Shown here one piece after another: positions 37,301 to 40,300 of a stretch of DNA of 64,000 bases (the first letter of the stretch is position 1; each line of letters opens with the position of its first letter). This DNA comes from Escherichia coli (GTDB taxonomy: Bacteria > Pseudomonadota > Gammaproteobacteria > Enterobacterales > Enterobacteriaceae): the NCBI RefSeq assembly GCF_041886205.1, contig NZ_CP169029.1. One strand, given 5' to 3'. Position numbers: made by a program.

Positions 37301-40300
37301 GATGGAATGATCATCATGGTGCACGCCAGGTTTGTTGCACTATCGTGGTGCATTGAAATGCATACTTAAGCATTTTTAATGAAAAATAATACGTCTAACG
37401 GGGCGGGATATTTTGCCTTGATGGTCAATTTTATGGCACGATAAGTGTAACAAACCTGTAAATATTCCCTTTAAAAAGACTGTCAGTTGAGGACATTATG
37501 AAAAAACTGGTGCTATCGCTCTCTCTGGTTCTGGCCTTCTCCAGCGCAACTGCGGCGTTTGCTGCGATTCCGCAAAACATCCGCATCGGTACCGACCCGA
37601 CCTATGCGCCATTTGAATCAAAAAATTCACAAGGCGAACTGGTTGGCTTCGATATCGATCTGGCAAAGGAATTATGCAAACGCATCAATACGCAATGTAC
37701 GTTTGTCGAAAATCCGCTGGATGCGTTAATCCCGTCCTTAAAAGCGAAGAAGATTGACGCCATCATGTCATCGCTTTCCATTACGGAAAAACGTCAGCAA
37801 GAAATAGCCTTCACCGACAAACTGTACGCTGCCGATTCTCGTTTGGTGGTGGCGAAAAATTCTGACATTCAGCCGACAGTCGAGTCGCTGAAAGGCAAAC
37901 GGGTAGGCGTATTGCAGGGCACCACCCAGGAGACGTTCGGTAATGAACATTGGGCACCAAAAGGCATTGAAATCGTCTCGTATCAGGGGCAGGACAACAT
38001 TTATTCTGACCTGACTGCCGGACGTATTGATGCCGCGTTCCAGGATGAGGTCGCTGCCAGCGAAGGTTTCCTCAAACAACCTGTCGGTAAAGATTACAAA
38101 TTCGGTGGCCCGTCTGTTAAAGATGAAAAACTGTTTGGCGTAGGGACCGGCATGGGCCTGCGTAAAGAAGATAACGAACTGCGCGAAGCACTGAACAAAG
38201 CCTTTGCCGAAATGCGCGCTGACGGTACTTACGAGAAATTAGCGAAAAAGTACTTCGATTTTGATGTTTATGGTGGCTAATCGCCATCGGTGAAAGAAAG
38301 CCCGCTCCCTTCGGGTAACCGGAGGGAGACAAGAGGCGGTAATTCACCACACACGACAGGACAGGCAGCATGTTGTATGGGTTTTCAGGTGTTATTTTAC
38401 AGGGTGCGCTCGTCACGCTGGAGCTGGCTATCAGCTCTGTAGTGCTCGCTGTAATCATCGGTTTAATTGGCGCTGGCGGTAAGCTCTCGCAAAATCGGCT
38501 TTCGGGGCTGATTTTCGAAGGGTACACCACGCTGATTCGTGGCGTGCCGGACTTAGTGTTGATGCTGCTGATTTTCTACGGTTTGCAGATTGCGCTAAAC
38601 ACGGTGACGGAGGCGATGGGCGTCGGGCAGATTGATATCGATCCGATGGTCGCTGGTATTATCACTCTCGGTTTTATCTACGGTGCTTATTTTACCGAAA
38701 CGTTCCGTGGTGCTTTTATGGCAGTGCCGAAAGGACATATAGAGGCGGCGACGGCGTTCGGTTTTACTCGTGGGCAAGTGTTTCGGCGGATCATGTTTCC
38801 GTCGATGATGCGTTACGCCCTGCCAGGCATTGGCAACAACTGGCAGGTGATCCTCAAATCTACCGCACTGGTTTCGTTACTCGGCCTGGAAGATGTGGTC
38901 AAAGCCACCCAACTGGCAGGCAAAAGTACCTGGGAACCGTTCTATTTCGCCATCGTCTGTGGCGTGATTTACCTGGTTTTCACCACTGTTTCCAATGGTG
39001 TGCTGCTGTTCCTTGAGCGCCGCTACTCCGTGGGTGTGAAGAGGGCTGACCTGTGATCGAAATCTTACATGAATACTGGAAACCGCTGCTGTGGACCGAC
39101 GGTTATCGCTTTACTGGTGTGGCGATCACTCTGTGGCTGCTTATTTTGTCGGTAGTGATAGGCGGAGTCCTGGCGCTGTTTCTGGCGATTGGTCGTGTCT
39201 CCAGTAATAAATACATCCAGTTTCCAATCTGGTTATTTACCTATATTTTTCGCGGTACGCCGCTGTATGTTCAGTTGCTGGTGTTCTATTCCGGCATGTA
39301 CACGCTTGAGATTGTTAAGGGAACCGAATTTCTTAACGCTTTCTTCCGCAGTGGCCTGAACTGTACCGTGCTGGCGCTGACGCTTAACACCTGCGCTTAC
39401 ACTACCGAGATTTTTGCTGGGGCAATCCGTTCGGTTCCGCATGGGGAAATTGAAGCCGCCAGAGCCTATGGCTTCTCGACTTTTAAAATGTATCGCTGCA
39501 TTATTTTGCCTTCTGCGCTGCGTATTGCGTTACCGGCATACAGCAACGAAGTGATCCTGATGCTGCACTCTACTGCGTTGGCATTTACTGCCACGGTGCC
39601 GGATCTGCTGAAAATAGCCCGCGATATTAACGCCGCCACGTATCAACCTTTTACCGCCTTCGGCATTGCCGCGGTGCTCTATTTAATCATCTCTTATGTC
39701 CTGATCAGCCTCTTTCGCAGAGCGGAAAAACGCTGGTTGCAGCATGTGAAACCTTCTTCAACGCACTGAGAATACGATGTCCGAGAATAAATTAAACGTT
39801 ATCGATTTGCACAAACGCTACGGCGAACATGAAGTGCTGAAAGGGGTATCACTGCAAGCGAATGCCGGAGATGTAATAAGCATCATCGGATCGTCGGGAT
39901 CGGGGAAAAGTACCTTTCTGCGCTGCATTAACTTCCTCGAAAAACCGAGTGAAGGGTCGATCGTGGTCAATGGCCAGACGATCAATCTGGTGCGCGACAA
40001 AGACGGTCAACTCAAAGTCGCCGATAAAAATCAACTGCGCTTACTGCGCACACGCCTGACGATGGTATTCCAGCACTTCAATCTCTGGAGCCATATGACG
40101 GTGCTGGAAAACGTCATGGAAGCGCCGATTCAGGTGTTGGGCCTGAGCAAGCAGGAAGCGCGCGAGCGGGCGGTGAAGTATCTGGCAAAAGTCGGGATAG
40201 ACGAACGTGCGCAGGGGAAATATCCGGTGCATCTTTCCGGCGGTCAGCAACAGCGTGTTTCTATCGCGCGGGCGCTGGCGATGGAACCGGAAGTTTTACT

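What the first reader, a model, noticed from the sequence alone, without database searches (positions are those of the whole stretch)
38305..38328. GUAA-tetraloop hairpin between hisJ and hisQ
A 10-bp stem capped by a GNRA-type tetraloop lies in the 89-nt hisJ-hisQ spacer. Such structures typically protect the upstream cistron from 3-prime exonucleolytic decay, which would give the binding protein higher expression than the membrane components.
Basis: partly seen in the sequence, partly recalled or inferred. Interest (0 to 1): 0.2.

Follow-up and report, generated by a model that had tools for sequence, protein, structure and literature searches.

The report
Known hisJ mRNA-protecting hairpin
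The hairpin between hisJ and hisQ is real, but it has already been published as the structure that marks and protects the 3' end of the more stable hisJ message in E. coli, so the finding is correct but ordinary.

Summary
The window is E. coli (purF-ubiX-argT-hisJQMP). The hairpin CTCCCTTCGG-GTAA-CCGGAGGGAG lies exactly at 38305-38328 in the 89-nt hisJ-hisQ spacer. It has 10 bp including one G.U, folds at -18.6 kcal/mol (0 of 200 shuffles as stable), has no U-tract, is single-copy per genome and is not a REP.

Dar & Sorek 2018 (PMC5927463) list hisJ/hisQ as a differentially decaying pair, with a half-life ratio of 3.7 and a steady-state mRNA ratio of 5.8. Their Term-seq 3' end maps 6 nt after this stem (window 38334), in their table of 3' protective structures.

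What my comparison of 80 Enterobacteriaceae species adds:
- Every spacer holds a strong U-tract-less hairpin or a REP pair in the same slot.
- Stems differ between genera and covary.
- Wobbles are sense-strand specific (22 G.U against 2 A.C).
- The GNRA loop is not conserved. About 7% of E. coli genomes have GUAU, and E. albertii has a 6-nt loop.
- In Salmonella the slot holds the classical hisJ-hisQ REP pair.
- The C/A-rich stretch just downstream is the published GcvB target for hisQ.

No stem mutagenesis exists for this hairpin. Novelty: already known. Interest: low.

The parts
37498..38280 (+). hisJ coding sequence (periplasmic histidine-binding protein), the stabilised upstream cistron
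   Evidence: ORF list. Annotated as hisJ in E. coli genomes. Listed as the stabilised gene of the hisJ/hisQ pair in PMC5927463 S3 Table.
38281..38369 (+). 89-nt hisJ-hisQ intercistronic spacer
   Evidence: Identical in K-12 MG1655, where no feature is annotated in it.
38305..38314 (+). 5' arm of the hairpin (CUCCCUUCGG)
   Evidence: Invariant across the Escherichia sequences examined.
38315..38318 (+). Tetraloop GUAA. It is of GNRA type here but is not conserved.
   Evidence: Variants are GUAU in 386 of 5,425 E. coli genomes, GCUA in one E. coli strain and AAGAGC in E. albertii. Loops of 3-9 nt with unrelated sequence occur in other genera.
38319..38328 (+). 3' arm of the hairpin (CCGGAGGGAG)
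   Evidence: Invariant across the Escherichia sequences examined.
38329..38334 (+). 6-nt single-stranded tail (ACAAGA) ending at the published in vivo RNA 3' end (window 38334)
   Evidence: PMC5927463 S6 Table gives a 60-nt sequence upstream of the Term-seq 3' end that equals window 38275-38334, with a fold showing a 6-nt tail.
38345..38374 (+). C/A-rich stretch, hisQ Shine-Dalgarno region and start codon. This is the neighbouring element targeted by the GcvB sRNA R1 seed. It is not part of the hairpin.
   Evidence: GcvB represses a hisJ-hisQ intraoperonic fusion in an R1-dependent way (PMC9299463). My R1 duplex prediction places the pairing at about 38349-38374, but the energy is not better than for shuffled targets. 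The stretch is predicted to be largely unpaired (P unpaired about 0.6).
38370..39056 (+). hisQ coding sequence (membrane permease subunit), first of the less stable downstream cistrons hisQMP
   Evidence: Listed as the non-stabilised gene in PMC5927463 S3 Table.
40557..40580 (+). Hairpin with a U-tract after hisP, the likely intrinsic terminator of the operon (context only)
   Evidence: Terminator scan. Also found in the hairpin scan.

Best explanation
The hairpin is an intercistronic 3'-exonuclease barrier, a 'protective 3' structure' in the mRNA of the argT-hisJQMP / hisJQMP operon. The polycistronic transcript is cut or terminated somewhere downstream in the poorly translated hisQMP part. 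3'-to-5' exonucleases (PNPase and RNase II) then digest back and stall at the 10-bp G+C-rich stem. This leaves a translatable hisJ mRNA that ends about 6 nt past the stem and outlives the hisQMP segment. The result contributes several-fold to the excess of the periplasmic binding protein HisJ over the membrane complex HisQMP.

Shown: the stem exists. It is conserved as a sense-strand RNA structure. An in vivo 3' end lies 6 nt after it. hisJ mRNA is more stable and more abundant than hisQ mRNA.

Inferred: the stem causes the stabilisation, and which nucleases and which initiating event (RNase E cleavage or Rho-dependent termination) are involved. The loop sequence plays no specific role.
For: Structure: -18.6 kcal/mol, z -4.2, 0 of 200 shuffles. 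There is no U-tract, so it is not an intrinsic terminator.

Published in vivo data for E. coli (PMC5927463): the hisJ/hisQ half-life ratio is 3.72 and the steady-state mRNA ratio is 5.83 +/- 2.81 (S3 Table). The Term-seq 3' end sits after ...GGAGGGAGACAAGA, which is window 38334, and is listed among '3' protective structures' (S6 Table). The main text names the histidine ABC operon among the decay-regulated operons and says the stabilised gene is always the substrate-binding subunit. In Salmonella SL1344 the hisJ/hisQ mRNA ratio is 4.77 and the 3' end lies after a REP stem (S5 Table).

Comparative data: all 80 Enterobacteriaceae species have, 9-28 nt after the hisJ stop, either a hairpin (typically -14 to -28 kcal/mol, none followed by a U-tract) or a REP pair. 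Stem sequences differ between genera. In the ungapped Klebsiella/Raoultella/Kluyvera alignment 6 of 11 pairs show compensatory double changes. There, 97.5% of cells are paired against 82% in shuffles (0 of 500), and 31-51% when the partner is slid.

Strand specificity: a strand-neutral palindrome finder gives 22 G.T (sense wobble) against 2 A.C. The hairpin passes the -17 kcal/mol threshold only on the + strand.

The E. coli hairpin occupies exactly the slot, between the conserved flanks GATAAAGCCC and AAAGAGGC, that holds the REP pair in Salmonella and Citrobacter. A review cites Stern et al. 1988 (histidine transport operon of Salmonella) for REP/BIME effects on mRNA stability.
Against: No mutational test of this stem exists in the sources I could read. 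The half-life ratio in PMC5927463 has no standard deviation, and the ratio recomputed from the Moffitt 2016 data is only 1.39, so the size of the stability effect is uncertain. The steady-state ratio (5.8) exceeds the half-life ratio, which leaves room for some transcription termination between the genes. hisJ/hisQ does not appear in that paper's E. aerogenes table. The held supplements of a second 3'-end study (Adams 2021) contain no hisJ entry. Within Escherichia the stem is invariant, so covariation evidence comes from other genera.
Confidence: 0.8

Rival explanations
1. The hairpin marks or causes partial transcription termination between hisJ and hisQ. This could be a weak intrinsic terminator, or Rho-dependent termination in the untranslated C-rich spacer with trimming back to the stem. 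Fewer polymerases would then reach hisQMP, and the differential expression would be mainly transcriptional.
For: An RNA 3' end exists 6 nt after the stem. The steady-state mRNA ratio (5.8) is larger than the half-life ratio (3.7, or 1.4 from the Moffitt data). PMC5927463 notes that in about a quarter of its cases decay does not fully explain abundance, implying leaky termination or internal promoters. The spacer downstream is C-rich and G-poor, which is rut-like. GcvB repression of hisQ translation could expose the RNA to Rho, as described for Spot 42 and galK (PMC8577784, listed).
Against: No U-tract follows the stem (ACAAGAGGCGGU), and the terminator scan does not call it. None of the 60 orthologous non-REP hairpins has a U-tract. 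Measured decay rates do differ between hisJ and hisQ. This mechanism is compatible with the protective role and does not exclude it.
Confidence: 0.2
2. The hairpin mainly acts on hisQ. It would be a translational insulator, or a structural module that sets the accessibility of the downstream C/A-rich GcvB site and the hisQ ribosome-binding site. A dual role is possible: lower hisQ translation would mean more RNase E access.
For: The GcvB R1-dependent target lies directly downstream. The minimum-free-energy fold extends the hairpin with outer helices (GGUGAA 38289-38294 with UUCACC 38343-38348) that touch the start of the C/A-rich stretch. PMC5927463 proposes such dual roles for protective structures.
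Against: The hairpin ends 41 nt before the hisQ AUG. The C/A-rich site is predicted to be mostly unpaired. The outer helices are not conserved outside close relatives. The distance from hairpin to hisQ start varies widely between genera (about 20-45 nt).
Confidence: 0.1
3. The hairpin is a 5' stabiliser of a processed hisQMP mRNA. As in papBA, RNase E would cut upstream of the stem and the 5' stem-loop would protect the downstream fragment.
For: An A-rich single-stranded stretch (GAAAGAAAG) precedes the stem. This mechanism exists in other E. coli operons (PMC5927463).
Against: hisQ is the less stable and less abundant partner. The mapped end at the stem is a 3' end, not a 5' end. hisJ/hisQ is absent from the paper's table of RNase E 5' protective structures (hisJ and hisQ occur only in S2, S3, S5 and S6).
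Confidence: 0.03
4. It is a DNA-level palindrome (a protein-binding or recombination site, or a decayed or variant REP or other dispersed repeat), or a chance palindrome.
For: It is a near-perfect 24-bp palindrome. An ISEc13 element inserted at its apex in one strain. REPs occupy the same slot in Salmonella and Citrobacter.
Against: It is single-copy per genome and has no other copy in the window. It has no similarity to the REP consensus, whereas real REPs are found at 20441-20477 and 33296-33337. Stem sequence turns over between genera while pairing is kept. Wobbles are almost exclusively G.U on the sense strand (22 against 2), which a DNA duplex site would not prefer. 0 of 200 shuffles fold as well.
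Confidence: 0.02

Closest known systems
The '3' protective structure' downstream of hisJ in E. coli, as catalogued by Dar & Sorek 2018 (PLoS Genet, PMC5927463, S6 Table)
   Same: It is the same element. Their 60-nt sequence upstream of the Term-seq 3' end equals window 38275-38334, and their fold is the same 10-bp stem with a 4-nt loop and a 6-nt tail.
   Different: Nothing differs. I add cross-genus conservation and covariation, strand specificity, loop variability and the positional equivalence with REP.
The REP pair (BIME) in the Salmonella hisJ-hisQ intercistronic region (Stern, Prossnitz & Ames 1988, cited). From my own knowledge, not read here: also Higgins et al. 1982 and Newbury et al. 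1987.
   Same: It has the same operon junction and the same slot between conserved flanks. It has the same outcome: a 3' end after the stem, and hisJ mRNA more abundant than hisQ mRNA (4.8-fold in Salmonella, PMC5927463 S5 Table).
   Different: The E. coli element is a unique 24-nt hairpin. It is not a member of the dispersed REP family and does not match the REP consensus.
The malE-malF intercistronic stabiliser of the malEFG operon
   Same: A binding-protein gene is followed by a U-tract-less stem that blocks 3' exonucleases after downstream cleavage. The half-life ratio is similar (3.2 for malE/malF against 3.7 for hisJ/hisQ).
   Different: The malE-malF element is made of REPs and has been tested by deletion, according to the account. 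The hisJ hairpin is non-REP and has not been mutated.
Rho-independent (intrinsic) terminators
   Same: It is a G+C-rich stem-loop after a stop codon, and an RNA 3' end lies nearby.
   Different: It has no U-tract, and transcription must continue into hisQMP.

Membership tests
3' protective stem-loop of a differentially decaying operon (malE-malF type; Dar & Sorek 2018 class) | A stable stem-loop immediately downstream of the stabilised cistron, inside the operon transcript | tested here: met
   10-bp stem, -18.6 kcal/mol, z -4.2, starting 24 nt after the hisJ stop
3' protective stem-loop of a differentially decaying operon (malE-malF type; Dar & Sorek 2018 class) | An in vivo RNA 3' end a few nucleotides 3' of the stem | tested here: met
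   Not computed here. I read it from published Term-seq data: the 3' end follows ...GGGAGACAAGA, which is window 38334 (PMC5927463 S6 Table).
3' protective stem-loop of a differentially decaying operon (malE-malF type; Dar & Sorek 2018 class) | The upstream cistron has a longer half-life and higher steady-state mRNA than the downstream cistron | tested here: met
   Published values: half-life ratio 3.72 (no SD) and mRNA ratio 5.83 +/- 2.81. The Moffitt-derived ratio is only 1.39 (PMC5927463 S3 Table).
3' protective stem-loop of a differentially decaying operon (malE-malF type; Dar & Sorek 2018 class) | Disrupting the stem removes the 3' end and destabilises the upstream cistron, and compensatory changes restore both | not testable with these tools
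   I found no mutagenesis of this stem in the papers I read. The natural analogue is covariation in orthologous stems.
3' protective stem-loop of a differentially decaying operon (malE-malF type; Dar & Sorek 2018 class) | The structure is conserved in relatives as an RNA (sense-strand) structure | tested here: met
   A hairpin or REP is present in all 80 species. 6 of 11 pairs are compensatory, with 0 of 500 shuffles reaching the observed pairing. 22 G.U against 2 A.C.
REP / BIME (repetitive extragenic palindromic elements) | A match to the REP consensus (GCC[G/T]GATG ... CTTATC[A/C]GGCCTAC) | tested here: not met
   The REP-core pattern finds 4 sites in the window (20441-20477, 33296-33337) and none in the spacer. 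The hairpin sequence is unrelated.
REP / BIME (repetitive extragenic palindromic elements) | Many dispersed copies per genome | tested here: not met
   One place per genome in 5,425 E. coli genomes. One copy in the window allowing up to 3 mismatches.
Intrinsic (Rho-independent) terminator | A G+C-rich hairpin immediately followed by a U-tract | tested here: not met
   The hairpin is present, but the tail is ACAAGAGGCGGU. It is not called by the terminator scan, whereas the hisP terminator at 40557-40580 is.
Functional GNRA tetraloop motif | The GNRA consensus is conserved among orthologues | tested here: not met
   GUAU in 386 of 5,425 E. coli genomes, including ATCC 11775 and Nissle 1917. GCUA and AAGAGC in other Escherichia. 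Loops of 3-9 nt with unrelated sequence in other genera.
GcvB sRNA target site (R1 seed, C/A-rich element) | A C/A-rich single-stranded sequence near the RBS that pairs with GcvB R1 and confers R1-dependent repression | tested here: inconclusive
   This applies to the neighbouring stretch at about 38345-38374, not to the hairpin. Repression is published (PMC9299463). My duplex energy of -24.5 kcal/mol is not better than shuffled targets (141 of 1000), although the argT leader scores best in the window.
Any curated Rfam family | A covariance-model match | tested here: not met
   No relevant hit at E <= 10 in 36200-40800, and none in the Salmonella or Citrobacter loci.

The most novel reading that the evidence does not exclude
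The hisJ-hisQ 'stem slot' may be an evolutionarily interchangeable cassette. Unrelated hairpins and REP/BIME elements would have replaced one another at the same position across Enterobacteriaceae. That would imply selection for any exonuclease-blocking stem, and that the archetypal Salmonella REP is a secondary occupant of an older hairpin site. In addition, formation of the hisJ-only transcript ending at this stem may be coupled to GcvB pairing at the adjacent hisQ leader through RNase E cleavage or Rho termination, as with Spot 42 and galK. The HisJ:HisQMP ratio would then be tunable by the sRNA and not fixed.
Probability: 0.25. Interest if true: 0.35.

Novelty: already known. Interest (0 to 1): 0.1.

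Why it matters
It matters little as a discovery. The element, its mapped 3' end and the differential decay of hisJ against hisQ were published in 2018, and the principle dates from the 1980s work on REP and malEFG. The modest added value is comparative. The data show that selection acts on the stem and not on the GNRA loop. They show that the stem is an RNA-level, sense-strand feature maintained across Enterobacteriaceae with complete sequence turnover. They also show that a plain hairpin in E. coli is the positional counterpart of the founding REP example in Salmonella. This makes the locus a clean natural test bed for asking whether REPs and simple hairpins are functionally interchangeable mRNA stabilisers. 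It could also show how that stabiliser interacts with the adjacent GcvB target site.

Tried and rejected
- **Alignment of all spacers:** a MAFFT and RNAalifold run on all 60 non-REP spacers predicted no pairs. Stems of different genera are not alignable by sequence, so I replaced it with subfamily alignments.
- **Enterobacter-type subfamily:** the stem is nearly invariant, so it gives little covariation information (2 of 13 pairs).
- **Whole-spacer strand comparison:** this favoured the antisense strand. I rejected it as confounded, because the C/A-rich tail becomes G/U-rich on the antisense strand. I redid it on hairpins alone and with a strand-neutral finder.
- **GcvB duplex prediction:** full-length GcvB-mRNA duplexfold gave a meaningless end-to-end duplex. 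The R1-only duplex is not discriminating for hisQ.
- **Rfam:** no hit.
- **Literature and supplements:** the held supplements of Adams et al. 2021 have no hisJ entry. No supplements are held for PMC9023263, PMC11092163 or Conway 2014. Stern et al. 1988 is not held. Searches for 'repetitive extragenic palindromic' with hisJ, and for hisJ with stem-loop or intercistronic, found nothing useful.
- **Hypotheses rejected:** REP membership, intrinsic terminator, functional GNRA motif, papBA-like 5' stabiliser, DNA-level palindrome and chance (see the rival explanations and the membership test).
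Full report
**Where the window is.** It is E. 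coli chromosome. The ORFs around the finding are purF, ubiX, argT (36495-37277), hisJ (37498-38280), hisQ (38370-39056), hisM, hisP (39777-40550) and rpnB. A 289-nt stretch spanning the spacer is present in 5,424 of 5,426 complete E. coli genomes and is annotated hisJ | hisQ. The K-12 MG1655 spacer is identical to the window, and the RefSeq record annotates no feature in it.

**The observation.** The sequence at 38305-38328 is CTCCCTTCGG-GTAA-CCGGAGGGAG. It forms a 10-bp stem with one U.G wobble (38311/38322) and a GUAA loop, inside an 89-nt spacer. Alone it folds at -18.6 kcal/mol, z = -4.2, and 0 of 200 dinucleotide shuffles fold as well. The whole spacer folds at -33.2 kcal/mol, z = -3.3. 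Hairpins of this class are rare. I found 14 on the + strand of the 64-kb window against 1.55 +/- 1.24 in shuffled sequence, and this one passes the threshold only on the + strand.

**What it is not.**
- It is not an intrinsic terminator. The tail is ACAAGAGGCGGU with no U-tract, and the scan does not call it, although it does call the hisP terminator at 40557-40580.
- It matches no Rfam family.
- It is not a REP or any other dispersed repeat. There is one place per genome in 5,425 E. coli genomes and one copy in the window with up to 3 mismatches. Genuine REP pairs are found at 20441-20477 and 33296-33337 but not in the spacer.

**Comparative anatomy.** I fetched hisQ loci from 80 Enterobacteriaceae species and extracted every hisJ-hisQ spacer. 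Every one has a strong secondary-structure element starting 9-28 nt after the hisJ stop codon.
- Escherichia: CTCCCTTCGG...CCGGAGGGAG.
- Four Citrobacter species: CTCCCTCCTGC...GCGGGAGGGAG.
- Enterobacter, Lelliottia, Leclercia, Kosakonia and Phytobacter: CCCCTCCC(GC)...(GC)GGGAGGGG.
- Klebsiella and Raoultella: CCATCGCGCGC...GCGCGCGATGG.
- Kluyvera: CCCATCGTTTCG...CGAAACGATGGG.
- Pluralibacter, Pseudocitrobacter, Atlantibacter, Superficieibacter and others: further unrelated stems.
- 16 species (Salmonella, the Citrobacter freundii group and C. amalonaticus): one REP or an inverted pair of REPs.

None of the hairpins is followed by a U-tract. An alignment of Escherichia, Citrobacter and Salmonella shows conserved flanks...GATAAAGCCC upstream and AAAGAGGC...CACCACACACGACAGGACAGGCAGCATG downstream. 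The variable segment between them holds either the simple hairpin or the REP(s). The E. coli hairpin is therefore the positional counterpart of the Salmonella hisJ-hisQ REPs. The cited reference is Stern et al. 1988. From my own knowledge, this Salmonella junction is also one of the places where REP was first described (Higgins et al. 1982); I did not read that paper here.

**Selection on the stem, on the sense strand.** A global MAFFT and RNAalifold run failed because the stems are not alignable by sequence. In the ungapped Klebsiella/Raoultella/Kluyvera alignment, RNAalifold recovers an 11-bp stem in which 6 pairs show compensatory double changes. With that structure 97.5% of cells pair, against 82% in column shuffles (0 of 500 reach it) and 31-51% when the 3' partner is slid. 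The covariation score is 0.524 against 0.218 (0 of 500). In the Enterobacter-type group the stem is almost invariant and so gives little covariation information. A strand-neutral palindrome finder counts 22 interior G.T oppositions, which are G.U wobbles on the mRNA strand. It counts only 2 A.C oppositions, which would be wobbles on the antisense strand. These are spread over at least ten different stem sequences. Hairpin-only folding is on average more stable on the sense strand (-20.8 against -19.8 kcal/mol), although those hairpins were picked on the sense strand. An earlier whole-spacer comparison pointed the other way. I discount it because the C/A-rich tail becomes G/U-rich on the antisense strand.

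**The loop is not conserved.** Within Escherichia both arms are invariant, and all substitutions in the hairpin fall in the loop or its closing pairs. SCU-122 has GUAU, SCPM-O-B-8794 has GCUA and E. albertii has a 6-nt AAGAGC loop. The GUAU variant is not GNRA. It is exact in 386 of 5,425 E. coli genomes, including the type strain ATCC 11775 and Nissle 1917. 4,517 genomes are identical to the window over the 45 nt tested. Other genera have loops of 3-9 nt with no common sequence. The 'GNRA tetraloop' in the finding's title is therefore incidental.

**Published experimental evidence.** Dar & Sorek 2018 (PLoS Genet 14:e1007354, PMC5927463) measured operon-internal differential decay in E. coli. 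Their main text names the histidine ABC transport operon among the decay-regulated operons and states that the stabilised gene is always the substrate-binding subunit.
- S3 Table lists the operon hisP-hisM-hisQ-hisJ-argT, pair hisJ/hisQ, with the upstream gene stabilised. The half-life ratio is 3.72 (no SD) and the steady-state mRNA ratio is 5.83 +/- 2.81. The half-life ratio from the Moffitt 2016 data is 1.39.
- S6 Table ('E. coli 3' protective structures') gives a Term-seq 3' end whose 60 upstream nucleotides are GGCTAATCGCCATCGGTGAAAGAAAGCCCGCTCCCTTCGGGTAACCGGAGGGAGACAAGA. The fold shown is ((((((((((....)))))))))) plus a 6-nt tail, at -19.9 kcal/mol. This is window 38275-38334, so the in vivo 3' end is at 38334, 6 nt past the stem.
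- S5 Table shows that in Salmonella SL1344 the hisJ/hisQ mRNA ratio is 4.77 +/- 0.47 and the 3' end follows a REP stem.
- hisJ/hisQ is not in their E. aerogenes table, nor in their table of RNase E 5' structures.

No mutagenesis of this particular stem is reported there.

**Neighbouring regulation.** Directly downstream of the hairpin lies a C/A-rich stretch (UUCACCACACACGACAGGACAGG) that runs into the hisQ ribosome-binding site. Miyakoshi et al. 2021 (PMC9299463) verified that GcvB represses hisQ through its R1 seed. They used a hisJ-hisQ intraoperonic fusion, supported by RIL-seq and MAPS data. My own R1 duplex calculation places the pairing at about 38349-38374, but its energy (-24.5 kcal/mol) is not better than for shuffled targets (141 of 1000). 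As a control, the best R1 partner in the whole window is the argT leader, a known target. The hairpin does not overlap this site, which is predicted to be mostly unpaired.

**Mechanism.** The best-supported reading is the malE-malF / REP model (described). After an initiating cleavage or termination in the poorly translated hisQMP segment, 3'-to-5' exonucleases stall at the stem. This leaves a stable hisJ message ending at 38334.
- Shown: the stem, its conservation as sense-strand RNA, the 3' end, and the difference in half-life and abundance.
- Inferred: causality, the nucleases, and the initiating event.

The effect on mRNA (about 4-6-fold) is only part of the 10-200-fold excess of binding protein over transporter reported for type I importers in E. 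coli (PMC12094219). Translation efficiency and GcvB must account for the rest. A contribution from Rho-dependent or leaky termination is not excluded, because the steady-state ratio exceeds the half-life ratio. I give that 0.2 as a contributing mechanism. Other readings are unlikely: a modulator of hisQ translation or GcvB access (0.1), a 5' stabiliser of hisQMP (0.03), and a DNA palindrome, repeat or chance (0.02).

**Verdict.** The novelty class is already known. Interest is 0.1.

Noticed in passing
L082 (E. coli TUM14697, NZ_CP128888.1) about 951-2500, corresponding to window 38311-38320: An IS4-like ISEc13 element is inserted at the apex of the hisJ-hisQ hairpin with a 10-bp target duplication TCGGGTAACC. 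It separates hisJ from hisQMP. This is a natural disruption of the stem in 1 of 5,426 genomes.
   Followed up: partly
window 36361-36540 (argT 5' leader): This is the best predicted pairing partner of the GcvB R1 seed on the + strand of the whole 64-kb window (-37.0 kcal/mol). That is consistent with argT being a known GcvB target. It served as a positive control for the duplex scan.
   Followed up: partly
window 38296-38304 and 38329-38337; alignment A5: The flanks of the hairpin/REP slot, (GAT)AAAGCCC upstream and A(A/C)AAGAGGC downstream, are conserved across Escherichia, Citrobacter and Salmonella regardless of what fills the slot. AAGAGG resembles a Shine-Dalgarno sequence, but no conserved start codon follows. 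The reason for this conservation is unexplained.
   Followed up: partly
Alignment A4 (30 Enterobacter-type spacers), columns 18-22 with 56-61: A second, outer helix (CGUGC ... G-CACG) encloses the inner hairpin and an A-rich 3' internal loop (AAAAGA). It is invariant in all 30 sequences, so it can be neither supported nor refuted by covariation. E. coli has only a weak GCC/GGC counterpart.
   Followed up: partly
window 20441-20477 and 33296-33337: These are two inverted pairs of genuine REP sequences (BIME-like) elsewhere in the window. I used them only as positive controls for the REP pattern.
   Followed up: no
window 40557-40580: A hairpin CTCCGGTGGCTAACGCTGCCGGAG followed by TATTTTCATG lies just after hisP. 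It is the likely intrinsic terminator of the hisJQMP operon.
   Followed up: no
L060 (record titled Citrobacter freundii strain M-21), spacer 2212-2500: This is an unusually long 289-nt hisJ-hisQ spacer. Its first hairpin and hisQ-proximal sequence resemble those of Atlantibacter (L044, L050) and not those of other Citrobacter. Possible explanations are a mislabelled record or horizontal exchange of the locus.
   Followed up: no
window 15073-15094, 1630-1658, 49584-49608, 55471-55497: These are strong hairpins that score on both strands (near-perfect palindromes, -17 to -20 kcal/mol). They turned up in the window-wide hairpin scan and I did not examine them.
   Followed up: no
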